Shown: piece by piece, positions 10,739-38,519 of the stretch
Numbering within the stretch: the first letter of the stretch is position 1
Layout of the letters: the number at the start of each line of letters is the position of its first letter
Source of the DNA: Candidatus Babeliales bacterium
Lineage (GTDB): Bacteria > Babelota > Babeliae > Babelales > JACPOV01
Reading direction: 5' to 3'
Assembly: GCA_050250855.1 (NCBI GenBank)
Contig: JBFWNW010000003.1
Coordinates: forward strand, 44,316 to 108,315
Length of the DNA: 64,000 nt
Program-made: the position numbers and the translations under genes
Notes under the pieces: generated by a model
What the model saw: the letters and a program-made list of their open reading frames with translations, nothing else
Databases searched by the model: none
Told to the model about the DNA's origin: nothing

Positions 10739-11638
10739 ATGAAAAAACATGCGAATACATCTTTTACCCATTGCCTCATAATAACCCTTAAGCCATTCCT
10801 TTACCTATTCGAGTTCATACTCACCATCGCAACACGAATAAAAGTAGAAATTTTATTACTTCTGGGTACTAATGCGACAAGAAAAAATCAAGAATTTATT
10901 AATGCAGCAAAATATAACCATGTCGCCATCTTGAAAAGATTACGTGCCCATGGTGTTGATAGTAATACCAGCAATAAAGATGGCAACACGGCGTTAATAA
11001 TTGCCGCTGCTTATGGGCACATAAAAACTATAGAATTTCTTATAAACAATGGCGCTGAGGTAAACCAGGTCAATAACTATGGACGCTCCGCATTAATACT
11101 TGCAGCTTTTAATAACCATAAGGAGTGTGCTCAACGTTTATTACAAGCACATGCTTCTCTTGCTACCGCTGATAATGACGGCAACACTGCATTAATGGCT
11201 GCTGCGGCTAATGGATGCAAAAACGCTACAGAACTACTCATACAGCATGGCGCCAATATCAATACTACCAATAAGTTTGGGTATACGGCTCTCATTTTTG
11301 CTGCTGCACAAGGTGATAAAGAAAGTGTACAGATGTTGCTTGAACATGGCGCTCAGGTAAATGCCACCACCAAGCATGGCTATACTGCTTTAATGGATGC
11401 TGCTTATTGGGGTGATAAAGATATTGTTGCATTATTGCTCAAGCATGGCGCTAACGTTAATGCAATCAATACCAATTGCCACACCGCCTTAACGCTTGCT
11501 ACGCACCAAGGCCATGAAGAAATTGTTGCTATGCTTTTAAAGCATGGCGCAGATAGTTCTATAAAAAACAATACGAGCAAAACAGTAAAAGATTCAACAT
11601 CCCAGCTGTTAGAAGACAATTTTGAATATTCTGAGTAA
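10739..11638 (+). CDS. ankyrin-repeat protein
   Basis: About 7 consecutive 33-aa repeats of the type GNTALIIAAAYGHIKTIEFLINNGAEVN, with a hydrophobic N-terminal segment. Confidence 0.85.
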   Translation: MKKHANTSFTHCLIITLKPFLYLFEFILTIATRIKVEILLLLGTNATRKNQEFINAAKYNHVAILKRLRAHGVDSNTSNKDGNTALIIAAAYGHIKTIEFLINNGAEVNQVNNYGRSALILAAFNNHKECAQRLLQAHASLATADNDGNTALMAAAANGCKNATELLIQHGANINTTNKFGYTALIFAAAQGDKESVQMLLEHGAQVNATTKHGYTALMDAAYWGDKDIVALLLKHGANVNAINTNCHTALTLATHQGHEEIVAMLLKHGADSSIKNNTSKTVKDSTSQLLEDNFEYSE

Positions 11639-11646
11639 AGGTGCCC

Positions 11647-13029
11647 ATGGAAACAACTAAGCAATTATTTGAAGCGGTAGAAAAAAATGACACCAGAAAA
11701 GTAAAAGAGTTATTGAAAAAAAATGCCCACGTGAATGCAACCGATGAACATGGCGGCACAGCATTAATGGCTGCAGCTGGAAAAGGATATACGAGCATTG
11801 TAAAAACTCTTTTGTCGCATGGCGCTCAGGTTAATACACACGGTGTTTTTGGTCTCACTGCTTTAATGTTAGCTTCTGCCAAAGGTGCTAAAAAAACAGT
11901 AGAACTTTTAATTAATCATGGTGCTGATGTTAATAGTTCTGCTGATTGTGGAGAAACAGCCTTAATGGAAGCCGCCGTAAGAGGAAAATATGCTGTTTGC
12001 ACCGTGCTTCTTGAACATAATGCTGACATAAATGCTCAAGATCACGAAGGTAATTCTGCTTTAATGAAAATAGCTCTTGAAAGTCATAAAGATTATATGC
12101 GCATCGTTCTTGATGCTCTGGATGATATTGATGATTGGAGTGAGGCTACTCGAAAAAAAATGAATATAATTCAGATATCTGACAATGAACGACACATACC
12201 TGAGGATGCAATAATCAAAGCACAAGCAAACCGTGCTGCTGCGCATAAAAAAATTGTAAAATTATTTTTAAAACATGGCGCCAATATAGCAATAAAAAAT
12301 AATGAAAAAGAAGAAGCTTTAGATCTTGCTCATGACAATGCTCTTAAAAAACTTCTTTTAGAAGCTACAAAGTCAGATACTCCCATAAAACAACTAGGAT
12401 ATTTTAAAGCGGCAGACCCAAATGACGAAAATGAGTTGATAGCTCATGATGCTGATGTTAATATCCCTTATGATGATTCTGATGGGTGGACTCGCTTGCT
12501 TGCCGCTGCCAGTGGGGGCACCAAAAACGAAGTAGAGTTTTTAATTAATCATGGTGCTGATGTTAATATGCCTAGTAATTTTGGCATTACACCGTTAATG
12601 GAAGCAGCTGTAAAAGGAAAATATGCTGTTTGCACCGTGCTTCTTGAACATAATGCTGACATAAATGCTAGAGATCGCAACGGTAATTCTGCTTTAATGA
12701 AAATAGCCCTTGAAAGTCAGAATTATTTTACGCGAATCATGCTTGATGCTCTGGATGATATTCGAGATTGGAGTGAGGCTACTCAAAAAAAAATGAATAT
12801 AGTTCAATCTAGCAATGAAAGCCTCATTCCTTGGGATGCAATGATCAAAGCGCAAGCTAACCGTGCTGCTGCGCATAAAAAAATTGTAAAATTATTTTTA
12901 AAACATGGCGCCGATATAGCAATAAAAAATAATGACGGTAAAACTGCTTTAGACCTTGCCCATGACAATGCTCTTAAAAAACTTCTTTTAGAAGCTCAAG
13001 CAAATAAAGGCTCTCATGAAAAACACTAA
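11647..13029 (+). CDS. ankyrin-repeat protein with internal ~150-aa duplication
   Basis: ANK repeats are present. The ATG at 11647 lies after AAGGTG (the track start at 11641 is a GTG). The two halves are nearly identical. Confidence 0.85.
   Translation: METTKQLFEAVEKNDTRKVKELLKKNAHVNATDEHGGTALMAAAGKGYTSIVKTLLSHGAQVNTHGVFGLTALMLASAKGAKKTVELLINHGADVNSSADCGETALMEAAVRGKYAVCTVLLEHNADINAQDHEGNSALMKIALESHKDYMRIVLDALDDIDDWSEATRKKMNIIQISDNERHIPEDAIIKAQANRAAAHKKIVKLFLKHGANIAIKNNEKEEALDLAHDNALKKLLLEATKSDTPIKQLGYFKAADPNDENELIAHDADVNIPYDDSDGWTRLLAAASGGTKNEVEFLINHGADVNMPSNFGITPLMEAAVKGKYAVCTVLLEHNADINARDRNGNSALMKIALESQNYFTRIMLDALDDIRDWSEATQKKMNIVQSSNESLIPWDAMIKAQANRAAAHKKIVKLFLKHGADIAIKNNDGKTALDLAHDNALKKLLLEAQANKGSHEKH
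11899..12996 (+). repeat. intragenic direct duplication: copy 1 at 11899-12366, copy 2 at 12532-12996, period 633 bp
   Basis: GTAGAACTTTTAATTAATCATGGTGCTGATGTTAAT... recurs as GTAGAGTTTTTAATTAATCATGGTGCTGATGTTAAT.... Both copies end in ...CATGACAATGCTCTTAAAAAACTTCTTTTAGAAGCT. The protein halves are roughly 80 percent identical by eye. Confidence 0.85.
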
Positions 13030-14797
13030 ACAATTATTTAAAGCACTAGAAGAACGTAATCTTGAAAAAGTAAAAGAATTAATAACACAGGGCGTTGATT
13101 TAGATCAGCGCGATAAAGAAGGCAATACGCCCTTAATACTTGCTTCATACTGGGGCAATAAAGAAATGGTAGAGCTTCTAATAACACATGGCAGCTCGGT
13201 CAATAGCACTAACCATTATGGCGATACTGCTTTAATGAAAGCTGCTGATCAAGACCAAGCCGATATTGTAAAAATTCTCCTAAAAAATGGTGCTACAGTA
13301 AATGTTGTTAATGAAGATAACAATACAGCTCTCATAAAAGCTGCATCATGGGCTCACAAAAAAGTTGTAGCATTATTATTAAAGCATGGCGCCGATATAA
13401 ATGCAGCTAATAAATATAATGAAACTGCTTTAATGTGTGCTAGTAAACGTGGAAATCAGGGCATTATAAATCTACTCCTAGAGCATGGAGCTCAACTTCA
13501 TGCAACCGATAAAGAAGGTCTTACACCTTTAATGCTGGCGCAAGGCAATAAAAAGGCTACAGAATTACTCTTAAAAAAAGGCGCTTCTAGTACAGGCTAT
13601 AAATTACTTGATGCGGTACGTGAAGGATATAAAGATATTGCAGAACAGCTTCTTAAAACTGGCGCATCTCCTAATCAAAAAAATAAAGATGGTAATCCTG
13701 CTTTAATAATTGCAACAAAACAAAATAATACAGAAATGGCAGCATTACTCTTAAAAAATGGCGCTACCATCAATGCTAAAGATGAAAATGGCACTACTGC
13801 CTTACTATTAGCAGTCCAACAAAATAATAAAGAACTTGTAGAGCTTCTTATAAAAAGTGGTGCCAATATAAATTTTGTAGATGAAAATAAAAATACTGCT
13901 TTAATGTATGCTGCACAGTATGATTATGCAACTATTGTAGAATTACTCATAAAAAATAAAGCTACCATAGATACTAAAGACCAAACTGGCCAAACAGCCT
14001 TAATGATTGCAGCAGCTAACGGCTCTCTACAAACTGTTACTTTATTACTACATCAGGATGCGTCTCTCGATGCTGATAATTATGGCAACACAGCCTTAAT
14101 GAAAGCAGCAAATGCAGGGCATCAAGCTATTGTAGCATTGCTCTTAAAAAATAATACTCACTTGGATAAAACTAATGAAGGTGACTGCTCTGCTTTACGC
14201 CATGCAGCCATTATGAACAATAAAAATATTGTAGAGTTATTGTTAAAAAGCGGCGCCACACTCCCTAAAACATTGATTGCTTCTTTATTTCATTCTTCAA
14301 ACATTTATAGTTTATTGAGCACAAAATATAATATTGATACTGCTTATATAACAGCAAAAGATACAAAGCTTATTAAAAAAGCTTACGAAGATAAAATTGC
14401 TCTTATTGAATTATTATTAAGCCATGGAGCGACCATAAATGCTCCTGACAATGAAGGCAACACTGCTCTCATAAATCTTATATGTTGGGTTTGGCCAGCT
14501 TCTTGGTGCCCTAAAGCTTATAAAGAACTGCTAGAATTCTTACTCAGAAATGGCGCCGATGTTAATGCTTCCAATAAAGATGGCACTACTGCTCTTTTAG
14601 AGGCTGCTTATAAAGGTGATGCTGATGCAGTGGCATTATTATTAAAACATGGTGCGAATGTACATACTACTGATGCATCTGGCAATACAGCTTTGATAAA
14701 TGTTCTGTATAATCCCGTAAAAAAAATTGTTGATTTACTTTTAAAACATGGTGCCGATATAACAATAAAAAATAAGGATTTTCATGAGAATGCCTAA
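13016..14797 (+). CDS. ankyrin-repeat protein, 593 aa
   Basis: More than 12 ANK repeats (GNTPLILASYWGNKEMVELLITHGSSVN and similar). It overlaps the upstream gene by 14 nt. Confidence 0.9.
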   Translation: MKNTKQLFKALEERNLEKVKELITQGVDLDQRDKEGNTPLILASYWGNKEMVELLITHGSSVNSTNHYGDTALMKAADQDQADIVKILLKNGATVNVVNEDNNTALIKAASWAHKKVVALLLKHGADINAANKYNETALMCASKRGNQGIINLLLEHGAQLHATDKEGLTPLMLAQGNKKATELLLKKGASSTGYKLLDAVREGYKDIAEQLLKTGASPNQKNKDGNPALIIATKQNNTEMAALLLKNGATINAKDENGTTALLLAVQQNNKELVELLIKSGANINFVDENKNTALMYAAQYDYATIVELLIKNKATIDTKDQTGQTALMIAAANGSLQTVTLLLHQDASLDADNYGNTALMKAANAGHQAIVALLLKNNTHLDKTNEGDCSALRHAAIMNNKNIVELLLKSGATLPKTLIASLFHSSNIYSLLSTKYNIDTAYITAKDTKLIKKAYEDKIALIELLLSHGATINAPDNEGNTALINLICWVWPASWCPKAYKELLEFLLRNGADVNASNKDGTTALLEAAYKGDADAVALLLKHGANVHTTDASGNTALINVLYNPVKKIVDLLLKHGADITIKNKDFHENA

Positions 14798-16499
14798 ACC
14801 ACTTTTTCAGGCGCTCTATAAAAATAATATTGAAAAAGTAAAAGAACTTATTGCTACTGGTGCCGATTGCAATGCAAAAGAGGATGGTCAAACAGCATTG
14901 ACGTTAGCAATCTTGCGAAATTCTCAAGAACTTGTGAACCTCTTATTGCAAGCTGGCGCTGATGTAAATTTAGCCAGAAAAGAAGACTTTTATACGCCAC
15001 TTATGGTTGCCGTAATCATGAAGAACAGTGATCTTGTAGCAACACTTCTTGCACATAAAGCTCAGGTTGATGTGCACAGTCCCGTTGATGGCATGACCCC
15101 GCTCAGATTGGCTATCAAGCGGGGCTTTAAAGATATTGCAGAGCTTTTGTTACATGCAAGCAATGATCTTGATAATCAACAAAAATATACTGCTCTATGC
15201 CTTGAGGCGCATCGCCACAACCGTCATGCTATGGTAGATTTGCTGAGTGCCAAAACAAATATTGACCCAACGCTCAAAGAAAAACTAAAAGAAAAACCTA
15301 CACAAGCCTTGTTTCAAGCAATAAAAGAAAATAATAAAGAAAAAGTGCAAGAAGCACTCTTACAAGGTGCTGATATAGAACACAGAAATGAAAAAGGTAA
15401 TACTCCGTTGCTAGAAGCCTATCACCATTATCAAGATACTATCATAAAACTTTTACTACAGCATGGAGCCGATACTCAGGAAATTAAAGAATCAATAGCC
15501 GTTTACTACACTAATATATTTGAATCATTTTGTTGCTATAGAGCTTTTAACCCCGTTGAAAATATAATAAAAGGATTAACAAGCTATGGCATTGACGCCA
15601 TAAATGAACCTGGTTGCGACAATGCCACCGTTCTTATGGAAGCATCAAATGCCGGTGAGACCAAATTGGTAAAACTTTTAATAGAACATGGCGCGCAGGT
15701 AAACCTTGTTGATAAGTATGGCAACACTGCTCTTATGAGGGCTGCAGATACCGGACACCTTGAAATTGTACAGTACTTACTCGAGCATGGCGCTGAAATA
15801 GATCACGTTGATGAATATGGTAATTCTGCACTACGAAAAGCAGCCAGAAACGGCCACACTCAGGTAGTAAAACTGCTTCTAGATCACGGCGCAGATATTA
15901 ACCAAAGAAATAGTTATGGTGGCACGCTTTTAATGGCTGCTTCCTATAGTGGCCATGCTGACATAGTCAAAATTTTGTTAGAACGTGGCGCAGATATACA
16001 TCTTACTGACAATGCTCATGAAACCGCTTTAGATAAAGCCGCACAACGCAAAAAAGTTGAGGTGATAAAAGTATTAGTAGAACATGGCGCACCGATAACA
16101 TCATCACTTTCTCTTGATGTGGCAACATTCTTCAAGAATATCAAGCGTGGCAACTTAGTAGAGATAGAATTAGCGTTATTCCTTAATAAAGACGCACACA
16201 TTAACGCTACTAATAATCAAGGAAATACTGCTTTACATATGACACTAGAGGCAGAAGGACATGCTGTGGTTATCAAGCTATTCCTTGATCATGGAGCTGA
16301 TATTAATCTCTGCAATAATGAAGGTTATTCAGTAATAATGCTTGCAGTGCAAAAACGCAGAAAAGATGTAGTAACACTTTTATTACAAGCTGGCGCTGAT
16401 CTCTCTTTACAAAGCAAAGAAGGAAAAACAGCCCTTGATTATGCACAGCATGAGGAAATAAAAGCAATGATCTTGCAAGCTCAAAAAAAATTAGGATAA
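14784..16499 (+). CDS. ankyrin-repeat protein, 571 aa
   Basis: ANK repeats (GNTALMRAADTGHLEIVQYLLEHGAEID and similar). AAGGA lies upstream of the ATG, and the gene overlaps its upstream neighbour by 14 nt. Confidence 0.9.
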   Translation: MRMPKPLFQALYKNNIEKVKELIATGADCNAKEDGQTALTLAILRNSQELVNLLLQAGADVNLARKEDFYTPLMVAVIMKNSDLVATLLAHKAQVDVHSPVDGMTPLRLAIKRGFKDIAELLLHASNDLDNQQKYTALCLEAHRHNRHAMVDLLSAKTNIDPTLKEKLKEKPTQALFQAIKENNKEKVQEALLQGADIEHRNEKGNTPLLEAYHHYQDTIIKLLLQHGADTQEIKESIAVYYTNIFESFCCYRAFNPVENIIKGLTSYGIDAINEPGCDNATVLMEASNAGETKLVKLLIEHGAQVNLVDKYGNTALMRAADTGHLEIVQYLLEHGAEIDHVDEYGNSALRKAARNGHTQVVKLLLDHGADINQRNSYGGTLLMAASYSGHADIVKILLERGADIHLTDNAHETALDKAAQRKKVEVIKVLVEHGAPITSSLSLDVATFFKNIKRGNLVEIELALFLNKDAHINATNNQGNTALHMTLEAEGHAVVIKLFLDHGADINLCNNEGYSVIMLAVQKRRKDVVTLLLQAGADLSLQSKEGKTALDYAQHEEIKAMILQAQKKLG

Positions 16500-16507: not shown

Positions 16508-17164
16508 ATGGAAATAATCAGTGAATTATTTGATGCAATACTTACCAACAATATTGAAAAAGTAAAAGAATTATTACAAACCAAAAATAAATTATATGAA
16601 AATGAATTTTTGGATACCTATCTTGAAACACCTCTCATGCTGGCTTCCAGAAAAAAACATATAGAAGTTGTCAAACTACTTTTAGAGAATGGTGCCAATG
16701 CTGCAAATGAACATGGCAAAACCGCGTTAACAAATGCCATCTTCTGGGGACATAAAGAAATAGTAAAATTGTTATTAGAAAATGGTGCATTGATAGATGA
16801 TAATGACATGTTCGTACCAATAACACTCCAAGAAAAAGATGTTTTGGAGGTTTGTTTAAAAAATTGCACTACTCATGCTAAGAACAAAGCATTATGGTCA
16901 TCTGTACTATTAGACTATAAAGATGGCGCAGAGCTTTCTTTAAAGCATGGTGCAGATATAAATGCTCTACATGAAGATGTTAAAAATGGCGATACCCCTT
17001 TTATAGCTGCAGTCAGATGTCGACGCATAAATATTATAGAGTTATTAATTCAATATGGCGCTGATCAGTCAATAAAAAATAATAAAGGTAAAACAGCATT
17101 AGATCTTGCAAAAACTAAAAAAATAAAAAATATTCTTTTAAAACAAAAAGATGGTGACGCATGA
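16508..17164 (+). CDS. ankyrin-repeat protein, 218 aa
   Basis: ANK repeats (ETPLMLASRKKHIEVVKLLLENGANA and similar). Confidence 0.85.
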   Translation: MEIISELFDAILTNNIEKVKELLQTKNKLYENEFLDTYLETPLMLASRKKHIEVVKLLLENGANAANEHGKTALTNAIFWGHKEIVKLLLENGALIDDNDMFVPITLQEKDVLEVCLKNCTTHAKNKALWSSVLLDYKDGAELSLKHGADINALHEDVKNGDTPFIAAVRCRRINIIELLIQYGADQSIKNNKGKTALDLAKTKKIKNILLKQKDGDA

Positions 17165-19409: not shown

Positions 19410-19982
19410 TTATTGTTTCAACATCGTTAAAATATCTTCATCACCTAAACAGTTTGCATAATACAAAGCATTTTTGCCTGCAAAAGTACCCAGCGTACTA
19501 TCTGCCCCTGCTTTCAAAAGCAATTTTATTATCTGCTTATTTCTTTTTATTAAAGCACATAATAAAGGTGTTATTTGATTTTGACACATACTATTTACCT
19601 GAGCACCATGCTTGAGCAAGAGTTCTACAATTCCTGCATGACCACAAAATGCCGCTGCTGCCAAAGCAGTCCCACGATACTCACCAGGTTTATTTACATC
19701 GGCTCCGTGTGCAAGTAAAAGCTCCACAAGTTCCTTATGCCCAGCTTGTGATGCTGCAATTAAGGCTGTTTGGCCATCACGCTCAGAAGCATTGACATCC
19801 ATTCCCGCTTGCAGCAAAAGCTTTACTATCGTGCTATATCCTCGCGCACAAGGCCATATTAAAAGTTCTGCAGGAAGCTTTTCTTGCATCTCTTTACATT
19901 CAACAAGCAATGCCACAACTTTTTGGCTATCATTATCTTGAATAGTTTTAAAAAGATCAATAATTTTAGAATATTTATCCAT
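19410..19982 (-). CDS. ankyrin-repeat protein, 190 aa
   Basis: GQTALIAASQAGHKELVELLLAHGADVN and flanking repeats. Confidence 0.85.
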   Translation of the reverse strand: MDKYSKIIDLFKTIQDNDSQKVVALLVECKEMQEKLPAELLIWPCARGYSTIVKLLLQAGMDVNASERDGQTALIAASQAGHKELVELLLAHGADVNKPGEYRGTALAAAAFCGHAGIVELLLKHGAQVNSMCQNQITPLLCALIKRNKQIIKLLLKAGADSTLGTFAGKNALYYANCLGDEDILTMLKQ

Positions 19983-31126: not shown

Positions 31127-33219
31127 TGAAAAATATCCCTTACACGCTCGTCAAAAACTTATTCGAAGCTCTTGAGAATAATAATCTTGAACTCGTAAAA
31201 CAACTTCTTGATCAAGGCATTTCTTTGGAAATATTAAATAGCGATAATGAAACACCTCTCATTACTGCTGTACGATGCGGGCATAAAGAATTAGTTGAAT
31301 TTTTAATTCATCGTGGCGCTTCCCTTAATAAACTGAGAGAGCCTCTTGATAAAAAACCAAGAGATCAAAAAACAGCTCTAATGCTTGCCTGTGAAAATAA
31401 GAGCGCTGATATTGCAGAGCTTCTTTTAAAAAACAATGCACCCGTAAATCAAACTAATGCTCGCGGGACAACAGCTCTTATGCTAGCAGCAGCACAAGCA
31501 AACGGTGAAGCTCTCATAAAACTCTTACTAGCTCATGGAGCATCTGTTAATAAAACTGATCTTAATGGTGCAACTGCTTTACATGAAGCAGCACAAGAAG
31601 GAAATACTCAGACACTTGAACTCCTTATAGAAGCCGGTGCAGAAATTGATGCTAAGGATTTGGAAGATTACACCGCTCTCCATCTTGCATGTGAGAAAGG
31701 ACATAATGACGCCGCAGCGCTCCTAGTAGCCAAAGGCGCTGACGTTCATGTACGTAGCTACCGAAGAACAACGCCTCTTATAGATGCTGCAAAACATCAT
31801 GATACAACTATTCTCAGGCACCTGCTTGAGGCTGGAGCAGAGGTCAATGCCAATGAAGATGAAAGGTGCGAAACACCGTTAACGGTAGCGGTGACACAAA
31901 ACAATATTGAAGCGGTAAAAATTCTACTTGAATATGGCGCTTTGGTGAATTACCCATCAAGAAGTAGCTATACACTTCTTATGCGAGCAGCAGAATCAAT
32001 AAATGTCCAAACAGATATCATAGAATTACTTTTGCAAGCTGGTGCTGATATAAACAAACAAGAAACTTGGGATGGCAGAACTCCTCTTATGATAGCTGCT
32101 GCAAATGGAGCACTTGATACCGTAAAAATCCTGTTAAAACACAAAGCCGATATTCATATAGAAGATTATAACGGCAAAACAGCATTGCATTATGCTGTTG
32201 AAAGTAGACTTGAAGATATGGTAACTATGTTGCTTGATGCAGGAAGTGCAATAAATCATCAGGATAATAAGGGCATTACCCCTTGGATACTGGCAGCAAA
32301 CCACAATTTCTCTGCTCTTTTAAAACTATTACTTACAAAAAATGCACAAATCAGTCTTAAAACCTATAATGGCGAAAGTGCTCTTTTTACTCCCTGCATT
32401 AATGGCGCTATAGAAACGGTTAAACTTTTATTGGCTGCTGGTGCAGATCTTAATACTATTAGCAAAGATGGCATTCACTGTCTTTTATTAGCAGCAAAAA
32501 ATAATTACCTTGACCTTGTGCAACTTTTGGTGGAGCAAGGTGCCAACATTTTTGAATCTGACAAAAGTAACAACACCGCTCTTGTTTATGCCAGCACAAA
32601 TAATAATACTGCCATGGTAAATTTTTTACTAAATGCAGATACATCATCAAAAAAAGAAGCGCAGCTGGTACAAAAAGCATTTATACGTGCTATTGAAAGA
32701 AATCATGCAGAAATCGTTAAACTTCTTACCCCTTATGTGGATCTTAATCTAGTTAATCATGATGACCCTTATTGTGATTCCTATGGCTATCAGTGGGACA
32801 AAACTGCTTTAATGATCTCCATTGAAAAAGGTTTTGAAATTACAAAAATTCTGGTAGAAGCTGGCTGTAACCTTGACATACAACATGCTAGAACGAAAGA
32901 AACGGCTCTTATTCTAGCAGTAAAATCTGGTCGCCTGCCGAGTGTAAAACTTCTTATAAAAGCCGGCGCATCAGTAAATATTCAGGATAGCTATGGCTGC
33001 ACTGCGCTTATGTATGCAGCAGAAAGCAACCGTATAGAAATGACAAAAATATTGCTTGAATCTGGTGCTGATGCAAACATTCACGATAACGAGAATCATA
33101 CCGCTTTAATGCATGCAGCTGAAAATGGTTATGAAGAAATACGGGAACTCTTAATTCCTGTCACAGCATCAGAAATAATGACCTGTAATAAAAAGTGTAA
33201 AGAATATAGTTCATTTTAA
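31126..33219 (+). CDS. ankyrin-repeat protein, 697 aa
   Basis: About 18 ANK repeats (GATALHEAAQEGNTQTLELLIEAGAEID and similar). Confidence 0.9.
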   Translation: MKNIPYTLVKNLFEALENNNLELVKQLLDQGISLEILNSDNETPLITAVRCGHKELVEFLIHRGASLNKLREPLDKKPRDQKTALMLACENKSADIAELLLKNNAPVNQTNARGTTALMLAAAQANGEALIKLLLAHGASVNKTDLNGATALHEAAQEGNTQTLELLIEAGAEIDAKDLEDYTALHLACEKGHNDAAALLVAKGADVHVRSYRRTTPLIDAAKHHDTTILRHLLEAGAEVNANEDERCETPLTVAVTQNNIEAVKILLEYGALVNYPSRSSYTLLMRAAESINVQTDIIELLLQAGADINKQETWDGRTPLMIAAANGALDTVKILLKHKADIHIEDYNGKTALHYAVESRLEDMVTMLLDAGSAINHQDNKGITPWILAANHNFSALLKLLLTKNAQISLKTYNGESALFTPCINGAIETVKLLLAAGADLNTISKDGIHCLLLAAKNNYLDLVQLLVEQGANIFESDKSNNTALVYASTNNNTAMVNFLLNADTSSKKEAQLVQKAFIRAIERNHAEIVKLLTPYVDLNLVNHDDPYCDSYGYQWDKTALMISIEKGFEITKILVEAGCNLDIQHARTKETALILAVKSGRLPSVKLLIKAGASVNIQDSYGCTALMYAAESNRIEMTKILLESGADANIHDNENHTALMHAAENGYEEIRELLIPVTASEIMTCNKKCKEYSSF

Positions 33220-33231
33220 AAAAGATATAGC

Positions 33232-33990
33232 ATGGATTACCAAAACCCAGTAACAAAAAAGTTTTTAGATGCAATAAAACAAGGGCAGTCTCAGGCTGTC
33301 AAAGATATCCTTGAACAGCAAAACATTTCTTTAAAAGAAAAAAACTGCGGGTTATTAGAAGCTGCAAGAAATGGCAATCTTGCTTTGGTAAAACTACTCA
33401 TAAGCCAAGGAGCTCAGATTAATGAATCCTGTAGCCTGGAATATGCGGTAGAAAAAGAACATGAGCATGTTGTAAAATTTTTGCTCAGCCAAGAAGGTGT
33501 TGAAGTCGATTATCCAGATAATGATAAAGGCTGGTCAGCACTCATGTTTACGGCGTGGAATGGTAACGTAAACATAGCACAACTATTGCTTGATCATGGC
33601 GCTGATATAGACCATGAAAATATATTTGAACAGACAGCCCTTATCCTTGCTGCAGAACGTTGCCCTTGCGGTGGATCTCGCTATAGAAGCGTTCCTGCAG
33701 ATTGTTCGCACCAAGGTGTTATAAAAATTCTTTTACAAGCTCATTTTGCACTAAACAAGCAAGATCAATATGGGCAAACAGCTTTGCATTATGCAGTAGG
33801 AAATGCCTGCACCCAAACGGTAAAACTTTTATTAGATGCAGGCACTGATCCGGATATAAAAAATCATAAGGAACAAACAGCAATTGAAAAAACAAAAAAC
33901 GCACTACGCTTTGTCGCGCAAGAACAGGAGAAATTAAATAAAATACATACCCTCTTAGAGCACTATAATGAATCAATCAAAAAAACTTGA
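33232..33990 (+). CDS. short ankyrin-repeat protein, family member 3 of 3
   Basis: VTKKFLDAIKQGQSQAVKDILEQQNISL... matches the ORF at 30389, and DNA identity to it is high over long stretches. Confidence 0.85.
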   Translation: MDYQNPVTKKFLDAIKQGQSQAVKDILEQQNISLKEKNCGLLEAARNGNLALVKLLISQGAQINESCSLEYAVEKEHEHVVKFLLSQEGVEVDYPDNDKGWSALMFTAWNGNVNIAQLLLDHGADIDHENIFEQTALILAAERCPCGGSRYRSVPADCSHQGVIKILLQAHFALNKQDQYGQTALHYAVGNACTQTVKLLLDAGTDPDIKNHKEQTAIEKTKNALRFVAQEQEKLNKIHTLLEHYNESIKKT

Positions 33991-35170
33991 TCCAGAAATC
34001 TTACATAATATACTCAATCAACTATGCAGGGATATTGAAACCTGGCTTAATCCTAATCCTGATGGATCTTTTGCCTGCTCGTTTGATTGCTGCATGGGAA
34101 ATTCTGCATTTGACTTCGATGACGTACTCGAGGAACACCCTCAAGAATTTGCAGACGTTATTGGTATTACTGGTATTGCCATGCTCAAACAACTGAGAGC
34201 TACAGTCGACATTGTTATATGGTTTGATAATAATGATAGCAAAAAGCTTGCCCAAAACCCTGGCTGGCAAGAAATTTGTGCATTTGGTCAAAAAGTACAC
34301 AAACATATCAAAGATTCATTAGAGGCCATTGAAACTAATACAAAAATTCTTAAAAAATATCCCCTCAGTTATACTGCCGAACTGATGAATTTAGTAAAAC
34401 AAATAGCCTCTGATAATAAAAATCCTAGCTCAAGGGATAGTGAAGGATCTCCCTTACATGGCCTTGAAGATTTTTTAACACGGTGCTGGTTTGTTTTACA
34501 AAACCCTGATGATTATAAAGGTATAACAGTAAGCGTTTATACGAACCTTGAAAATTTATATTTTTTAGTAAAAACGTATCATGAAAATCCACTTGAATCT
34601 GCTGACCGTTCAGCAAAAATAACGCAACGAGAAGGTTTTTTATCAAAATCTATCAGTCAATTAAAGTGGTATGAAATTACTCAATGCGCGCAACAAGCAT
34701 GGGACGCCTTTGAGCCAGATTCTAGAATTTTTGACCGAAACAAACTTATTAAACGATTGCAAGACCTTAATATTTATGTACGCCGTTGGGGAGCCGCTGG
34801 GCCAAGTGCTTTAGCGCAGCTTGAGCGCAATTTAGATCATACCTTCGATGATGAATCGCGCTCATTTATTGAAGAAATTGGTAATCTTGATATTGGAGAA
34901 TATCAAATCGAATTTACTCGTGATAAAGTTAAAGAAATACCTACTGCTCTAAAAAAAGTTCGCTCCGCAAATTCTTCTGACCATATTTTAACCATTATGT
35001 ATAAAAAATATGGTGATAGCACCTCTCAAGAAGACTGTTATTCTCTGCATGCTGATGGCACTATAAAACGTACACCATATCAAGATCCATCACGCCAGAA
35101 AACATATTCTTCATTATCTGTCCTCATTGAAAGCATTATAGAAGAAGAGCTAACATCACAAAAAAAATAA
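33968..35170 (+). CDS. hypothetical protein, 400 aa, possible C-terminal SUKH (SMI1/KNR4)-like domain
   Basis: No ANK repeats. The C-terminal ~120 aa (ALAQLERNLDHTFDDESRSFIEEIGNLDIGEYQIEF...) resembles the SUKH pattern. This domain call is weak. Confidence 0.5.
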   Translation: MNQSKKLDPEILHNILNQLCRDIETWLNPNPDGSFACSFDCCMGNSAFDFDDVLEEHPQEFADVIGITGIAMLKQLRATVDIVIWFDNNDSKKLAQNPGWQEICAFGQKVHKHIKDSLEAIETNTKILKKYPLSYTAELMNLVKQIASDNKNPSSRDSEGSPLHGLEDFLTRCWFVLQNPDDYKGITVSVYTNLENLYFLVKTYHENPLESADRSAKITQREGFLSKSISQLKWYEITQCAQQAWDAFEPDSRIFDRNKLIKRLQDLNIYVRRWGAAGPSALAQLERNLDHTFDDESRSFIEEIGNLDIGEYQIEFTRDKVKEIPTALKKVRSANSSDHILTIMYKKYGDSTSQEDCYSLHADGTIKRTPYQDPSRQKTYSSLSVLIESIIEEELTSQKK

Positions 35171-35177
35171 AATCGCT

Positions 35178-36155
35178 ATGAATAAATCTGCACACCATCT
35201 TTTTAATGCATTAGAAGAACGAGGTAATAAAAAACTCGTTCAAACATTACTCAATCAAGGCGTAGCACTTGAGCAAAAAAATGACCGGGGGCAAACACCC
35301 TTGCTTTTTGCAGCAAGCAATCCTTATATAGATTACGAAATTATAAAACTCTTGCTCCAGCATGGTGCACCGGTAAACAGCACAACCCCCGATGGTTGGA
35401 CGCCATTACTTGAAGCTGTCACTGCGGGCAGAGACGGTATTGTAGAACTTCTTTTGCAATATGGTGCGGATGTCAATGTAATGACGCATGATGGAACCGC
35501 ACTCATTATAGCCACCATCTATTGTCACAAAGAAATTGCTGAACTTCTTATACAGCATGGTGCTCATATAAATAGCGCTATGCATGATGGAACAACCGCA
35601 CTGCTTATTGCAGCACAAGGCACACTGCCACCACGAGCATTCACGCATACAAGTTATGCTACACAACGAGCCTATGGCAAATATCATGATTTAGAGCCTG
35701 AATATTATAAAGAAATGCTTGAACTCCTTCTGCTCTTAGGTGCTGATGGATCCCTACAAGATAATTCTGGTAAAACTGCATTTGATTACATTACTATTAA
35801 TCTTTTAGTCCTATTAGGCAGAACCATTAGCTGTTGGCTTAAGCCGGATTCTTCTTCTTTTTTTAATGATCATTTTACATACATAGAGGTTGTAAAACAT
35901 TCATTTAAAAACGTTTTTGATCAACTATTTGAATACAGTGATAATCTGCAAAAAATCATAGGAACAGAGGAACTCAAAAGAATTAAACAGCTAAAATCAC
36001 TAATAAAACAAATAAAAATAATTGATAAAAATATCAATACAACACTCAAAAAAAATCCTGATTGGCTTAACCTTTGTGATCTTGGGCAAGCTATAGAAAA
36101 TCATATAGCAAAATATGACAAAACAAGTGAGTGTATTGTTATTCCTGAACTATGA
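35178..36155 (+). CDS. ankyrin-repeat protein with non-ANK C-terminal domain, 325 aa
   Basis: ANK repeats (GWTPLLEAVTAGRDGIVELLLQYGADVN) followed by a helical C-terminal domain of about 120 aa. Confidence 0.85.
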   Translation: MNKSAHHLFNALEERGNKKLVQTLLNQGVALEQKNDRGQTPLLFAASNPYIDYEIIKLLLQHGAPVNSTTPDGWTPLLEAVTAGRDGIVELLLQYGADVNVMTHDGTALIIATIYCHKEIAELLIQHGAHINSAMHDGTTALLIAAQGTLPPRAFTHTSYATQRAYGKYHDLEPEYYKEMLELLLLLGADGSLQDNSGKTAFDYITINLLVLLGRTISCWLKPDSSSFFNDHFTYIEVVKHSFKNVFDQLFEYSDNLQKIIGTEELKRIKQLKSLIKQIKIIDKNINTTLKKNPDWLNLCDLGQAIENHIAKYDKTSECIVIPEL

Positions 36156-37525
36156 AAAATAAAAATATGGTAAAACTTCCTTTTGATAAAGCACTCCAAC
36201 TCTTTGATGCATTTCTTGCAAAGCATGCATTGCCGCAAGAAAAAATTTTTGTTCTAGGCAAACAAGTTCTATGGCTTGATACAGAAAATAACCCTCTGTG
36301 TCTCTACCTACCAAACGAGCAACAATGTTCTATACAAGATATACAAGAACTGTATGATTATTCTTTGGAAAAAGTCACTTCAGACTATTCCCCTATTGCC
36401 TTTCATGCTCTGGCGGTGCATAAAGGTAAAACTATCTGCAGCCTTGCTAACGATTTTTTTAGTTTTACGGACGAACCATGGGTTGAAACGCATCATGAAA
36501 ATACTCTTATCTTTTCTTCTCTGTTTACAAAAAAAGAATTAAAAATTATTCATGATAAAAACACATGGCATGCATTACAAAATAAAGAACGCCTGCTGAG
36601 TGACCTTGATTATCTTTTTTATATCACGCGCCAAGAAAAAAATAATTATAATTACTTATACAGAGCGATTCTGGCTGACAATACCGATACAATAAAAAAA
36701 ATTCTTTCCCGTGATAATTCGTTACTCAACATACACAATCAGTTTGGTTCTACCCCATTGGCAAATGCGTTTCTAGAAAAAGAATTTGTACCAACAAAAG
36801 AATTGATTGCCCTTCTTCTTTCTTACCATCTTGATGTTAATCTTACATCTCAAGGATCCACCTTATTGCACTTTGCTGCTGACAAGGGGTATTCAACTAT
36901 AGTAGCTCTTTTATTACAAGCTGGCGCACACATAAATATACAAAATAAAAGTGGCTGGACACCTCTTATGCAAGCAGCGGCAGCGGGGCACACAGAAATT
37001 GTAAAGCTACTACTTGATGCTGGCGCAAAAATAGATATCACAGGGAGCGTATTACTCTTAAAATCTTCCTATGATGCTGGCTATTACGACTTTGATAATT
37101 TTGCAAAAAAAACGGGTGATGAAAATAAACCTGACAATTTTACCGCACTTATGGCAGGAGCAAGCAGTGGCAATAAGGAAGTTGTTAAGCTTTTATTACA
37201 GCATGGTGCTGCAGCAATAATCAATCAGCAAGATATTCTTGGCCGAACAGCACTATATTATGCTACGTTTCTGGGTCATGAAGAGATTGTGGAACTTTTG
37301 CTTGCCTATAATGCTGACACCAATCTGAAAACATCTATGCATAAAACAGCTCTCATTACTGCCTCACGCAATGGTAATAAAAAAATTGTTGAACTCCTCC
37401 TTGCGCATGGTGCAAACATTGATGATAAAGATAAACATCACTGCTCCCCCTTACGAAATGCCATAATCAAAGGGCATACTGAAATTTATAAAATGTTATT
37501 AGAAGCAAAAAAGAATAATCAATAA
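36152..37525 (+). CDS. protein with unknown ~170-aa N-terminal domain plus C-terminal ankyrin repeats, 457 aa
   Basis: ATGA overlap with the upstream gene. ANK repeats include GWTPLMQAAAAGHTEIVKLLLDAGAKID. Confidence 0.85.
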   Translation: MKNKNMVKLPFDKALQLFDAFLAKHALPQEKIFVLGKQVLWLDTENNPLCLYLPNEQQCSIQDIQELYDYSLEKVTSDYSPIAFHALAVHKGKTICSLANDFFSFTDEPWVETHHENTLIFSSLFTKKELKIIHDKNTWHALQNKERLLSDLDYLFYITRQEKNNYNYLYRAILADNTDTIKKILSRDNSLLNIHNQFGSTPLANAFLEKEFVPTKELIALLLSYHLDVNLTSQGSTLLHFAADKGYSTIVALLLQAGAHINIQNKSGWTPLMQAAAAGHTEIVKLLLDAGAKIDITGSVLLLKSSYDAGYYDFDNFAKKTGDENKPDNFTALMAGASSGNKEVVKLLLQHGAAAIINQQDILGRTALYYATFLGHEEIVELLLAYNADTNLKTSMHKTALITASRNGNKKIVELLLAHGANIDDKDKHHCSPLRNAIIKGHTEIYKMLLEAKKNNQ

Positions 37526-37598
37526 AACTCTTTCTATTTTACCTGCAAAATCTCTAGGATTCTTTCTGAGCTATAACCTTAATAGAAAGAATTCTGTT

Positions 37599-38519
37599 AT
37601 GAAACATAGCAAAATCTATTTTATTATTTTTTTAAGTACTATAATTCCACCTCTAAAAGCAGCTGAAAATAAACCACTCATGCATGCTTGTAAAAATAAT
37701 GATACCACGAAGCTGCAAGAACTTCTTGGCAATGGGCACACCTGGGATCAAGAGCTCGATACAAAAGCTATTAATGAACGAAATCTTTATAAAAAAAATG
37801 TTAATGCTGATAATTATTTACAAGCCCTTGACCAAGAACAATATTATTTTGGCAATCCAGAAAACGTTCTTAATCGCTGCGCTGATGACTCTCCTTTGCA
37901 TTGGGCTATTGTGCACAAAAAATATAATCTCGCTCGCCTTTTAACATTATATGGCAAATTACCAAGTTTTAACCCCTGCAACGATCTTCTTCTTTCAAAA
38001 AGCCCTTTGCGGCTTGTCGCTCTACAAAGAATCATTACAAAACAAGAAACGCTTGATTTTGAAAAATTTCTCTTGGCCCATGAAGTAACAACGCCGCAAC
38101 CATTCCTAAAAACAAATGATGAGATTAATCTTTCAAAAGATCGCATAAAAACGTTTTTACTCTGCTGTAATAGATATAAAAATACTTTCCTAGAAATTCC
38201 GCGTGATATTATTTTTCATATACTTTCTTTTATGCCTGAAGAAGTTTTTTCTGTTTCTATGCTTGCAACCGTAGTAAAATATTGCAGCATGCTACCAGAA
38301 AGCTATGTAAAAAGTTTACACAAAACAGCACTTCTTGATGCTTTTAAAAAACTAGATAATCTTGAATTGAAAAAAAAGTATAAACAATCATGTAAAAATA
38401 TTCTTATTGAGCATGGAATGCAACACCCTTCAATACATTATGTACAAAAATCTTATAATGCAGAAACTCTAGAAGAATTTTTAGACAAACAACTAGAAGC
38501 TCTTTTTTATCTTTTTTAA
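37599..38519 (+). CDS. exported ANK-like protein with F-box-like motif (paralog of the ORF at 5890-6900)
   Basis: Signal-like N-terminus IYFIIFLSTIIPPLKAAEN, one clear ANK unit (SPLHWAIVHKKYNLARLLTLYG), and LEIPRDIIFHILSFMPEE. Confidence 0.75.
   Translation: MKHSKIYFIIFLSTIIPPLKAAENKPLMHACKNNDTTKLQELLGNGHTWDQELDTKAINERNLYKKNVNADNYLQALDQEQYYFGNPENVLNRCADDSPLHWAIVHKKYNLARLLTLYGKLPSFNPCNDLLLSKSPLRLVALQRIITKQETLDFEKFLLAHEVTTPQPFLKTNDEINLSKDRIKTFLLCCNRYKNTFLEIPRDIIFHILSFMPEEVFSVSMLATVVKYCSMLPESYVKSLHKTALLDAFKKLDNLELKKKYKQSCKNILIEHGMQHPSIHYVQKSYNAETLEEFLDKQLEALFYLF

What the first reader, a model, noticed from the sequence alone, without database searches (positions are those of the whole stretch)
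10739..38519. 28-kb ankyrin-repeat super-island: 20 ANK ORFs in three coupled arrays between housekeeping blocks
Seen in the sequence:
- Between uppP and its membrane-protein neighbour (ending at about 10.5 kb) and the outer-membrane protein gene at 38.7 kb, 20 of 28 ORFs carry canonical 33-aa ANK repeats.
- Three more ANK ORFs lie at 4943, 5890 and 56418.
- The summed ANK ORF length is about 24.4 kb of the 64-kb window.
- They form a plus-strand array (10739-18411), a minus-strand array (18405-24874) and a plus-strand array (28151-38519), with start/stop overlaps or gaps of under 30 nt.

Established knowledge: ANK repeats are eukaryote-type interaction modules, and dense expansions are a hallmark of intracellular or protist-associated bacteria, where they act as host-targeting effectors.

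Inference: this is an effector-type accessory island, and the non-ANK genes embedded in it are the best place to look for new biology. Only 6 of the 23 have Sec-type N-termini, so export of the others is unexplained.
Basis: partly seen in the sequence, partly recalled or inferred. Interest (0 to 1): 0.6.

Follow-up and report, generated by a model that had tools for sequence, protein, structure and literature searches.

The report
Lineage-specific ankyrin gene island in Babeliales
A 28-kb block of ankyrin-repeat genes is real and is missing from the same spot in four related genomes, but such ankyrin-rich islands are already known in this group of protist parasites (Dependentiae), so it is a new example, not a new kind.

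Summary
Between 10739 and 38519, 20 of 27 ORFs carry Pfam ankyrin (ANK) repeats, and three more ANK ORFs lie at 4943, 5890 and 56418. Together they total 24,432 nt. The window comes from a Candidatus Babeliales (Dependentiae/TM6) metagenome-assembled genome. Four relatives keep the same housekeeping backbone, but there the outer-membrane-protein gene lies next to uppP, 156-323 nt away. The block 9979-38665 is therefore a lineage-specific insertion. Its base composition and codon usage match the flanking genes, it has no mobility genes, and it contains paralogue pairs and a repeated gene junction. This points to duplication and divergence on the spot. ANK expansions, and "genome islands enriched in ankyrins", are already described for Babela and Chromulinavorax. 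The effector reading is plausible but untested. Only 6 of the 23 ANK proteins have signal-peptide-like N-termini, 3 are membrane-anchored and 14 have no export signal. [quoted passage not shown] One embedded non-ANK gene (20704-21189) belongs to an undescribed family that elsewhere lies directly downstream of Rhs toxin tips, the position of an immunity gene. In another ANK array this domain is fused to ANK repeats. A polyimmunity-like role for the unexported ANK arrays therefore stays open as a minority reading.

The parts
9987..10550 (-). 187-aa hydrophobic ORF directly upstream of uppP. It is part of the insertion.
   Evidence: No Pfam family. tblastn finds no match in the four relatives. 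It is present in same-species contigs L001-L003.
10739..11638 (+). ANK protein of 299 aa with an N-terminal membrane anchor. First gene of plus-strand array 1.
   Evidence: Ank_2 8e-82. Hydrophobic segment at residues 12-44.
11641..13029 (+). ANK protein of 462 aa with no export signal. It contains an internal duplication of about 630 nt.
   Evidence: Ank_2 3e-50. Repeats D7 and D10 are 86-88% identical at the nucleotide level. For the duplication, dS is 0.20 and dN/dS is 0.68.
13016..14797 (+). ANK protein of 593 aa with no export signal.
   Evidence: Ank_2 3e-113.
14784..16499 (+). ANK protein of 571 aa with no export signal.
   Evidence: Ank_2 2e-82.
16508..17164 (+). ANK protein of 218 aa with no export signal.
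   Evidence: Ank_2 6e-28.
17161..18411 (+). ANK protein of 416 aa with no export signal. Last gene of array 1.
   Evidence: Ank_2 1e-58. The gene junction plus N-terminal cap (repeat D9) is shared by the five starts at 11633, 13002, 14770, 16494 and 17147.
18405..19397 (-). Pol-beta-type nucleotidyltransferase of 330 aa (RlaP-like). Last gene of the minus-strand array.
   Evidence: PF10127 8e-10, 39.2 bits against a cut-off of 23. The sequence carries a GS...DVDI motif. No PADLOC or PDB hit.
19410..19982 (-). ANK protein of 190 aa with no export signal.
   Evidence: Ank_2 1e-43.
19992..20678 (-). 228-aa protein of unknown function.
   Evidence: No significant Pfam, NCBIfam, PADLOC or PDB hit. 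It forms a singleton cluster.
20704..21189 (-). 161-aa member of an undescribed family predicted to be polymorphic-toxin immunity proteins. Here it is an orphan, with no toxin nearby.
   Evidence: 183 relatives with E<1e-3. None of 46 scanned family members matched any non-ANK Pfam family at E<=0.01; the only hits were ANK repeats in one member. The AF2 model has pLDDT 94.6 and no significant PDB neighbour. Homologues lie 1-18 nt downstream of Rhs toxin tips in L017, L019, L020 and L022. P0193 is a fusion of this domain with ANK repeats.
21182..21841 (-). Membrane-anchored ANK protein of 219 aa.
   Evidence: Ank 2e-15. Transmembrane segments. 57% amino-acid identity to the next gene.
21838..22410 (-). 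Membrane-anchored ANK protein of 190 aa, paralogue of 21182-21841.
   Evidence: Ank_2 4e-16. For the pair, dS is 1.0 and dN/dS is 0.39.
22428..24239 (-). ANK protein of 603 aa with a signal-peptide-like N-terminus.
   Evidence: Ank_2 2e-101. N-terminal hydrophobic region.
24203..24874 (-). Weak ANK protein of 223 aa with a signal-peptide-like N-terminus. First gene of the minus-strand array.
   Evidence: Ank_4 4e-10. N-terminal hydrophobic region.
24950..25552 (+). Single ANK gene of 200 aa with no export signal.
   Evidence: Ank_2 1e-32.
25536..27163 (-). Two tandem DUF1963 (TYPP/YwqG) proteins of 272 and 276 aa.
   Evidence: PF09234 9e-7 and 8e-13, both above the cut-off. GGKP, CxxC and Q motifs are visible in the sequence. 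The two are 38% identical. The family is known to be fused to ANK and to form tandem operons (PMC4275035).
27187..27999 (-). Calcineurin-like metallophosphoesterase of 270 aa.
   Evidence: PF00149 3e-13. PADLOC candidate PDC-S10 5e-14.
28151..33990 (+). Five ANK genes (503, 244, 245, 697 and 252 aa), none with an export signal. They form the first part of plus-strand array 2.
   Evidence: Ank_2 from 9e-72 to 3e-131. The genes at 29662, 30389 and 33232 are paralogues at 43-63% amino-acid identity, and repeat D6 is 82% identical at the nucleotide level.
33968..35170 (+). 400-aa protein with no relatives found. Its N-terminus resembles the C-terminus of the next ANK protein.
   Evidence: Only an identical sequence was found among 5.8 billion clusters. 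29% identity over 103 aa to the protein at 35178. SUKH_5 E=0.059, not significant. AF2 pLDDT 46, unusable.
35178..37525 (+). Two ANK genes (325 and 457 aa) that carry non-ANK C-terminal and N-terminal extensions respectively. Neither has an export signal.
   Evidence: Ank_2 1e-27 and 3e-50.
37599..38519 (+). 306-aa protein with a signal-peptide-like N-terminus, degenerate ANK repeats and a C-terminal motif IPRDIIFHILSFMPEE. Last island gene.
   Evidence: Ank_3 24.9 bits. 50% identity over 66 aa to the C-terminus of the protein at 5890. F-box E=0.64.
4943..6900 (+). Two ANK proteins with signal-peptide-like N-termini (315 and 336 aa), outside the island, in the variable slot between ftsK and the Mur ligase gene.
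   Evidence: An orthologous 313-aa ANK gene lies at the same place in L004.
56418..57191 (+). Isolated ANK protein of 257 aa with a signal-peptide-like N-terminus.
   Evidence: Ank_2 2e-28. N-terminal hydrophobic region.
38666..40246 (+). Right border: a conserved 526-aa putative outer-membrane protein. In relatives it is the direct neighbour of uppP.
   Evidence: 56-71% identical orthologues lie adjacent to uppP in L004/L010, L005, L008 and L009. No Pfam family.
9208..9978 (-). Left border: uppP.
   Evidence: PF02673 6e-30.

Best explanation
The block is a lineage-specific expansion of ankyrin-repeat genes in the genome of a Candidatus Babeliales bacterium (phylum Dependentiae/TM6, obligate intracellular parasites of protists). 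It fills what is a short divergent intergenic region between uppP and a conserved outer-membrane-protein gene in related genomes. It most likely grew on the spot, by repeated duplication of whole gene units and of internal repeat blocks followed by divergence. This produced tightly packed arrays that are probably polycistronic. The ANK proteins are protein-binding scaffolds. The most likely role is interaction with host proteins, as proposed for the ANK expansions of Babela and Chromulinavorax. The subset with signal peptides or membrane anchors (7 of the 20 in the block) would reach the cell surface or be secreted through Sec and type II secretion. Shown here: the ANK content, the taxon, the absence of the block in four relatives, native base composition, paralogy, and intact genes with dN/dS of 0.33-0.39 between paralogues. 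Inferred: polycistronic expression, host targeting, and any export route for the 13 block proteins that have no signal.
For: ANK domains in 20 of 27 ORFs. Taxon: the best named FtsK hits are 'Candidatus Babeliales bacterium' at 57-67% identity, and the window's own proteins are annotated as that in NCBI. Synteny: in L004/L010, L005, L008 and L009 the order plsX-gltX-fabD-acp-M48-like genes-OMP-uppP-ftsK-Mur ligase-rsmH-spoVG is conserved, the OMP gene and uppP lie 156-323 nt apart, and no island protein has a match there. Native composition: GC 0.369 against 0.390, GC3 0.267 against 0.280, and RSCU correlation 0.84 between island and housekeeping genes. No tRNA gene borders the block, and no integrase or transposase family was found. 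Local duplication: five consecutive genes share the junction plus N-terminal cap (repeat D9); there are paralogue pairs at 57-63% identity and an internal duplication at 86-88% nucleotide identity. All ORFs are intact, and paralogue dN/dS is 0.33-0.39. [quoted passage not shown] Chromulinavorax has 98 ANK proteins, 78% with a signal peptide (PMC6561590).
Against: There is no direct evidence of host targeting. Fourteen of the 23 ANK proteins (13 of the 20 in the block) have no Sec signal or membrane anchor. That share is far higher than reported for Babela or Chromulinavorax, and no secretion system for folded cytoplasmic proteins has been reported in the Dependentiae papers read here. The F-box-like motif is not statistically supported. 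An embedded gene belongs to a predicted toxin-immunity family, and elsewhere that domain is fused to ANK repeats. Only four relatives, at 49-67% FtsK identity, were compared, so the age of the insertion and any strain-level variation are unknown.
Confidence: 0.55

Rival explanations
1. Polyimmunity-like battery. The signal-less, tightly packed, same-strand ANK arrays encode cytoplasmic binders (Imm-Ank type). These would neutralise toxins from co-resident bacteria, from the host, or the parasite's own secreted enzymes before export. The embedded immunity-family gene would be part of the same function.
For: The arrays match the published description of polyimmunity loci: tandem genes in one orientation, with tiny or negative intergenic distances, no recognised toxin gene inside the locus, and variation between genomes (PMC3482391; junctions; synteny). 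Thirteen of the 20 block ANK proteins have no export signal. The gene at 20704-21189 belongs to a family that lies 1-18 nt downstream of homologous Rhs toxin tips in four loci. In P0195 a tip-like domain is fused to this domain. In P0193 the domain is fused to ANK repeats, inside another ANK array. Imm-Ank proteins, and ANK fusions to immunity domains, are documented. ANK-mediated self-protection is known in Bdellovibrio (cited in PMC6561590).
Against: Only one of the 27 genes has neighbourhood evidence for an immunity role. No toxin-tip homologue or Rhs gene occurs in the window. The SUKH_5 (E=0.059) and Imm49 (E=0.004, below cut-off) hits are not significant. Many of the ANK proteins are large (400-700 aa). 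The same arrays contain ANK proteins with signal peptides or membrane anchors. According to Zhang et al. [quoted passage not shown] A parasite with a reduced genome spending this much DNA on defence against other bacteria would be unexpected.
Confidence: 0.2
2. Horizontally acquired mobile island. The block arrived as one piece from another bacterium, a giant virus or the eukaryotic host.
For: The block is absent from four relatives at a precise site. ANK repeats are typical of eukaryotes, and horizontal transfer inside amoebae is widely proposed (PMC4378268).
Against: GC, GC3 and codon usage match the flanking housekeeping genes. There is no integrase, transposase, bordering tRNA gene or flanking direct repeat. 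The genes are paralogues of one another and of ANK genes elsewhere in the window. Scans of viral contigs with two embedded genes found nothing.
Confidence: 0.07
3. Functionally inert repeat proliferation. The ANK genes expand through slippage and unequal crossing-over, with little selective value.
For: There are many DNA-level ANK repeat families at 60-77% identity that could drive unequal recombination. The internal duplication in the gene at 11641 has dN/dS of 0.68.
Against: All 20 ANK ORFs are intact, up to 697 aa long, with no frameshifts. Paralogue pairs with dS of 0.8-1.8 still show dN/dS of 0.33-0.39. The arrays retain compact start/stop junctions.
Confidence: 0.06

Closest known systems
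ANK-enriched genome islands and ANK expansion of Babela massiliensis and Chromulinavorax destructans (Dependentiae)
   Same: Same order (Babeliales). ANK proteins are massively expanded and cluster in islands that also hold unrelated proteins of unknown function. Tandem gene duplication is frequent, and the presumed role is host interaction (PMC4378268, PMC6561590).
   Different: In this window only 26% of ANK proteins have signal-peptide-like N-termini, against 63% in Babela and 78% in Chromulinavorax. This island is shown to be an insertion into a backbone conserved in four relatives. It also embeds a predicted toxin-immunity gene.
Legionella/Coxiella Ank effectors (for example AnkB, AnkX) delivered by the Dot/Icm type IV system
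   Same: ANK repeats used as scaffolds that bind eukaryotic proteins in an intracellular bacterium associated with amoebae.
   Different: Those effectors are scattered through the genome and need a type IV secretion system. No such system is known in Dependentiae (PMC4378268), and none lies in the window. The F-box-like motif here is not supported, unlike the genuine F-box of AnkB.
Polyimmunity loci and Imm-Ank immunity proteins of polymorphic toxin systems (Zhang et al. 2012)
   Same: Tight same-strand arrays of functionally equivalent, mostly cytoplasmic binder genes that vary between genomes. ANK is a documented immunity module. An immunity-family gene sits inside this island.
   Different: No cognate toxins are present. 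The ANK proteins are much larger and more numerous. Some carry export signals. According to Zhang et al. 2012, extended loci of this type had been found only in certain lineages of four other phyla.
TYPP/YwqG (DUF1963) tandem operons and ANK-YwqG fusions (Burroughs & Aravind 2014)
   Same: Two tandem DUF1963 genes with the GGxP, CxxC and Q motifs lie beside ANK genes. This mirrors the reported tandem operons and ANK fusions.
   Different: Here the ANK and DUF1963 parts are separate genes on opposite strands, and the DUF1963 pair is preceded by a metallophosphoesterase gene on the same strand. The function is unknown in both cases.

Membership tests
Ankyrin-repeat proteins (Pfam Ank clan) | Repeats of about 33 aa scoring above the Pfam gathering cut-offs | tested here: met
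   20 of 27 block ORFs plus 3 outside the block. 99-nt periodicity in the DNA. The ORF at 37599 is marginal.
Accessory (lineage-specific) genomic island | Absent from the same site in related genomes that have conserved flanks | tested here: met
   In four Babeliales relatives the OMP gene lies directly next to uppP.
Horizontally acquired mobile island | Atypical base composition or codon usage | tested here: not met
   GC 0.369 against 0.390, GC3 0.267 against 0.280, RSCU r=0.84.
Horizontally acquired mobile island | Integrase or transposase, bordering tRNA gene, flanking direct repeats | tested here: not met
   No such Pfam hits. The only tRNA gene is at 1955-2028. There is no border repeat.
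Sec/type II-secreted ANK proteins of Dependentiae | N-terminal signal peptide | tested here: inconclusive
   The heuristic gives 3 signal-peptide-like N-termini and 4 membrane anchors among the 20 block ANK proteins, counting the ORF at 24203 as signal-peptide-like; 13 have neither. SignalP was not available.
Type IV-secreted Ank effectors (Legionella/Coxiella type) | Presence of a Dot/Icm-type secretion system and a C-terminal translocation signal | not testable with these tools
   The whole genome was not available. [quoted passage not shown]
F-box / PRANC ANK proteins | A C-terminal F-box or PRANC domain detectable by profile | tested here: not met
   Pfam F-box E=0.64, covering only 17 of 43 positions, and no PRANC hit. 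A profile search against PDB found no F-box protein. No wider family was found.
Polyimmunity locus (Zhang et al. 2012) | Four or more tandem genes in one orientation with small intergenic distances, not interrupted by toxin genes | tested here: met
   The arrays have 6, 8 and 9 genes, with gaps of at most 25 nt or overlaps, apart from one 73-nt gap. No recognised toxin domain is present.
Polyimmunity locus (Zhang et al. 2012) | Members belong to families shown or predicted to be immunity proteins | tested here: inconclusive
   Only the gene at 20704-21189 has neighbourhood evidence. ANK repeats alone do not identify an immunity protein. The SUKH_5 and Imm49 hits are below threshold.
Polymorphic-toxin immunity protein (for the gene at 20704-21189) | The gene lies immediately downstream of, and on the same strand as, the variable C-terminal toxin tip of an Rhs-type protein | tested here: met
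   This holds for the homologues, not for the window copy. Gaps are 1-18 nt in L017, L019, L020 and L022. The upstream protein in L022 matches RHS_repeat at 6e-26 and has the ...DPIG...NNPLKYIDLWG core end. The toxin tips are 39-83% identical to one another.
TYPP/YwqG (DUF1963) | Pfam DUF1963 above cut-off; GGxP motif, conserved Q, optional CxxC pairs | tested here: met
   29.9 and 49.6 bits against a cut-off of 23. GGKP, CxxC and LLFQ motifs are visible in the sequences.

The most novel reading that the evidence does not exclude
In this obligate intracellular parasite, the signal-less, tightly packed ANK arrays would not be host effectors. They would be a polyimmunity-like cytoplasmic battery of toxin-neutralising binders. 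The orphan immunity gene (20704-21189) and the fusion of that domain to ANK repeats in another ANK array would be traces of this function. Part of the well-known ANK expansion of Dependentiae would then serve protection, against co-infecting bacteria, host toxins or the parasite's own secreted enzymes, and not host manipulation.
Probability: 0.15. Interest if true: 0.7.

Novelty: new member of a known kind. Interest (0 to 1): 0.35.

Why it matters
ANK proteins take up 10% or more of Dependentiae genomes, yet none has a demonstrated function or export route. This locus is a clean example: a 28-kb ANK block dropped into a backbone conserved in four related genomes, made mostly of proteins with no export signal. 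It therefore sharpens the open question of how, or whether, such proteins reach the host. The embedded immunity-family gene, and its fusion to ANK repeats elsewhere, give a concrete and testable alternative role. In itself the island adds another example to a phenomenon already described for Babela and Chromulinavorax.

Tried and rejected
1. Searching GTDB genomes with FtsK as a single protein found nothing. An alignment of the outer-membrane protein was needed instead.

2. The F-box/PRANC idea for the C-terminal motif IPxDIxFHILSFMPEE (ORFs at 5890 and 37599) failed. Pfam gave E=0.64, there was no PRANC hit, the profile found no PDB hit, and no wider family exists. I keep it only as a lead seen by eye.

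3. I had recalled DUF1963 as an immunity family. Burroughs & Aravind 2014 describe it as a protein-interaction or chaperone-like domain (TYPP), so I dropped it as support for the immunity reading.

4. PADLOC and NCBIfam scans of the non-ANK genes gave only generic ANK matches and a hit to a metallophosphoesterase candidate, PDC-S10.

5. PDB sequence searches with the nucleotidyltransferase, a DUF1963 protein, the ORF at 33968 and the ORF at 19992 gave nothing. The metallophosphoesterase gave only a weak MPPED2 hit.

6. A single-sequence AF2 model of the ORF at 33968 was unusable (pLDDT 46), so the weak SUKH-like hit remains untested.

8. The promoter and terminator scan gave 70 promoter-like sites against about 68 in shuffled sequence, so it told nothing about transcription units; terminator-like sites were only modestly above shuffles, 24 against 15.1, sd 4.1.

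9. Scans of viral contigs for the families of the ORFs at 20704 and 19992 were negative.

Full report
**Observation.** Between 10739 and 38519 there are 27 non-nested ORFs of at least 80 aa, not 28. Twenty of them score above the Pfam gathering cut-offs for ankyrin (ANK) families, with E-values down to 3e-131. ORF 37599-38519 is marginal (Ank_3 24.9 bits against a cut-off of 22.3). The three outlying ANK ORFs at 4943, 5890 and 56418 are real. The 23 ANK ORFs sum to 24,432 nt, and the 20 in the block occupy 78% of it. DNA repeat families spaced at multiples of 99 nt show the 33-aa period directly.

Gene junctions are overlaps of 1-37 nt or gaps of 25 nt or less, except for one 73-nt gap and two divergent gaps of 75 and 151 nt. 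There are five strand blocks rather than three:
- six ANK genes on the plus strand (10739-18411);
- eight genes on the minus strand (24874 down to 18405), five ANK and three not;
- one plus-strand ANK gene (24950-25552);
- a minus-strand trio of a metallophosphoesterase and two DUF1963 genes (27999 down to 25536);
- nine plus-strand genes (28151-38519), eight ANK plus one gene with no known relatives.

**Source organism.** The flanks are housekeeping genes. On the left are maf, tRNA-Gln, spoVG, rsmH, a Mur ligase gene, ftsK and uppP. On the right are fabD, gltX, plsX, dprA, gyrA, lepA, grpE, ssb, a CDP-alcohol phosphatidyltransferase gene and a tRNA methyltransferase gene of the MnmA type. The best named hits for FtsK are 'Candidatus Babeliales bacterium' and 'Candidatus Dependentiae bacterium' at 48-57% identity (the closest hit, 67%, is the Babeliales MAG SW_22). 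The window's own proteins occur in NCBI as 'MAG... [Candidatus Babeliales bacterium]', locus tags AB7R69_*, on a 222-kb contig. The organism is therefore a member of the Dependentiae (TM6). All characterised members of that phylum are obligate intracellular parasites of protists (PMC4776705, PMC4378268, PMC6561590).

**Is it an island?** I fetched the FtsK and outer-membrane-protein (OMP) neighbourhoods of four relatives:
- MAG SW_22 (L004/L010), FtsK 67% identical;
- GCA_040879965.1 (L005), 57%;
- Dependentiae UR.bin19 (L008), 49%;
- CAZUJC01 (L009), 49%.

All four keep the order plsX, an unnamed gene, gltX, fabD, acp, two or three M48-like genes, a small ORF, the OMP gene, uppP, ftsK, a variable slot, the Mur ligase gene, rsmH and spoVG. 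In every one, the orthologue of window gene 38666-40246 (56-71% identical) lies next to uppP, 156-323 nt away. tblastn with all island proteins finds nothing there. Window 9979-38665 is therefore a lineage-specific insertion into the divergent uppP/OMP intergenic region. It comprises a 187-aa hydrophobic ORF upstream of uppP plus the 27 ORFs. Both borders are also seen in independent assemblies of the same species (L001, L006, L007), so the block is not a chimera.

**Origin.** The block has the genome's own composition. GC is 0.369 against 0.390, GC3 is 0.267 against 0.280, and the RSCU correlation with the flanking housekeeping genes is 0.84. It has no integrase or transposase, no bordering tRNA gene and no border repeats. 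Several features point to local duplication:
- Five consecutive genes of the first array share the same junction-plus-start segment, which begins about 14 nt upstream of the ATG (repeat D9).
- The genes at 30389 and 33232 are 63% identical in protein and 82% identical in DNA over 300 nt.
- The genes at 21182 and 21838 are 57% identical, and the two DUF1963 genes are 38% identical.
- The gene at 11641 contains an internal duplication of about 630 nt at 86-88% nucleotide identity.

Most other ANK pairs are only 25-48% identical. Paralogue pairs have dS of 0.8-1.8 with dN/dS of 0.33-0.39. The young internal duplication has dS of 0.20 and dN/dS of 0.68. The picture is long-running duplication and divergence on the spot, under relaxed purifying selection. 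It is neither a recent foreign acquisition nor decaying junk.

**What the ANK proteins are likely to do.** The literature already describes this phenomenon. Babela massiliensis has 126 ANK proteins, 79 with signal peptides, many tandem duplications and 'genome islands enriched in ankyrins' that also hold other secreted or membrane proteins. [quoted passage not shown] Chromulinavorax destructans has 98 ANK proteins, 78% with signal peptides (PMC6561590). The default reading, host-interaction factors, is therefore reasonable, and I adopt it as the best explanation.

It is not demonstrated, and this locus strains it. A hydrophobicity heuristic finds signal-peptide-like N-termini in only 6 of 23 ANK proteins (4943, 5890, 22428, 24203, 37599, 56418) and N-terminal membrane anchors in 3 (10739, 21182, 21838). 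The other 14 begin directly with an ANK capping helix. The ORFs are already maximal, so missed upstream starts cannot explain this.

By eye I saw an F-box-like motif (IPxDIxFHILSFMPEE) in the C-terminal parts of the proteins at 5890 and 37599, and in the L004 orthologue. It failed every test. Pfam F-box gave E=0.64 over 17 positions, there was no PRANC hit, a profile search found no PDB match, and no wider family exists.

**The embedded non-ANK genes.**
- 18405-19397 is a Pol-beta-type nucleotidyltransferase (RlaP family, 39 bits).
- 27187-27999 is a calcineurin-like metallophosphoesterase.
- 25536-27163 holds two tandem DUF1963 proteins with the GGxP, CxxC and Q motifs of the TYPP/YwqG superfamily. 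That superfamily is a predicted protein-interaction or chaperone-like domain, already known to form tandem operons and to be fused to ANK repeats (PMC4275035).
- 33968-35170 has no relative among 5.8 billion protein clusters. Its N-terminus resembles the C-terminus of the neighbouring ANK protein. A weak SUKH_5 hit (E=0.059) could not be tested because the single-sequence model was unusable (pLDDT 46).
- 19992-20678 remains unknown.

**The informative gene is 20704-21189 (161 aa).** A full HMMER scan of 1.84 billion representative proteins found 183 relatives of about 150-165 aa. None of 46 scanned family members matched any non-ANK Pfam family at E<=0.01. The AF2 model is confident (pLDDT 94.6), mostly beta-strand with two helices, and has no significant PDB neighbour.

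Gene neighbourhoods are telling. In L022 (the same contig as L015) the homologue starts 9 nt after a partial ORF of at least 1013 aa. That ORF matches RHS_repeat at 6e-26 and has the canonical core end ...DPIG...NNPLKYIDLWG. In L020 the homologue follows an orphan tip cassette that begins with the same motif. L017 and L019 show the same arrangement. The four toxin tips are 39-83% identical and end in IHGQNYGYWEIVEEG. In a high-GC organism (P0195) a tip-like domain is fused to the domain. This is the position of a cognate immunity gene in Rhs polymorphic toxin systems.

The window copy is an orphan, because no toxin-tip homologue exists in the 64 kb. In P0193 the same domain is fused to about 290 aa of ANK repeats, and that gene sits in another small ANK array (L011, GC 0.35).

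**The rival reading.** Zhang et al. 2012 define polyimmunity loci as tandem, same-orientation, tightly spaced arrays of immunity genes that are uninterrupted by toxin genes and vary between genomes. They list Imm-Ank and ANK fusions to immunity domains (PMC3482391). The signal-less ANK arrays here fit that architecture, and they contain one immunity-family gene.

Against this reading, only one gene has such evidence and there are no toxins. The ANK proteins are large, and exported ANK proteins sit in the same arrays. According to that paper, extended polyimmunity loci had been found only in certain lineages of four other phyla. I give this reading about 0.2 as an explanation of the block. About 0.15 goes to its stronger form, that a substantial part of the Dependentiae ANK expansion is protective rather than host-manipulating.

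**Verdict.** The feature is real, and it is an accessory, lineage-specific ANK island. It is a further member of a known kind of genome feature in Babeliales. The effector function is plausible but unproven. The unexplained lack of export signals, and the embedded orphan immunity-family gene, are the points worth following up.

Noticed in passing
window 20704-21189 (-); L017, L019, L020, L022; P0193, P0195: An undescribed family of about 160 aa, with 183 relatives, none of 46 scanned members matching a non-ANK Pfam family, and a confident AF2 model without a PDB neighbour. It lies directly downstream of Rhs toxin tips that carry an unannotated C-terminal domain of about 220 aa ending in IHGQNYGYWEIVEEG. 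This looks like a new toxin-immunity pair.
   Followed up: yes
window 4943-6900; L004 4514-5455; L005 12532-16513; L009 3676-6770: The slot between ftsK and the Mur ligase gene is a second variable site. The window has two ANK genes with signal-peptide-like N-termini, the closest relative has one orthologous ANK gene, and L005 has six ORFs with no Pfam family on record.
   Followed up: partly
window 6500-6700 and 38090-38300 (C-terminal parts of the ORFs at 5890 and 37599): A shared motif SKxRIKTFLL...IPxDIxFHILSFMPEE looks like the first helix of an F-box but is not statistically supported. It is also present in the L004 orthologue.
   Followed up: yes
window 41004-43534: Three tandem paralogues with weak M48 / YgjP-like metallopeptidase similarity. 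They are conserved as two or three copies in all four relatives, next to a small conserved ORF (40460-40783).
   Followed up: partly
L009 (CAZUJC010000005.1): The public record is titled 'uncultured Pseudomonadota bacterium', but its gene order and 49-81% protein identities (uppP lower, 37%) match the Babeliales backbone. The taxonomic label is probably wrong.
   Followed up: partly
window 59811-59881 and 60096-60166: Two copies of a 71-nt direct repeat (72% identical, 285 nt apart) just downstream of the ssb gene. The function is unknown.
   Followed up: no
window 33968-35170 and 35178-36155: The N-terminal 100 aa of the gene with no known relatives resemble the non-ANK C-terminal tail of the adjacent ANK protein (29% identity over 103 aa). 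This suggests a shared accessory domain or a past gene fission or fusion.
   Followed up: partly
window 27187-27999 (-): The metallophosphoesterase matches the PADLOC phage-defence candidate PDC-S10 (E=5e-14) and lies on the same strand directly upstream of the two DUF1963 genes (23-nt gap). The meaning of this trio is unclear.
   Followed up: no
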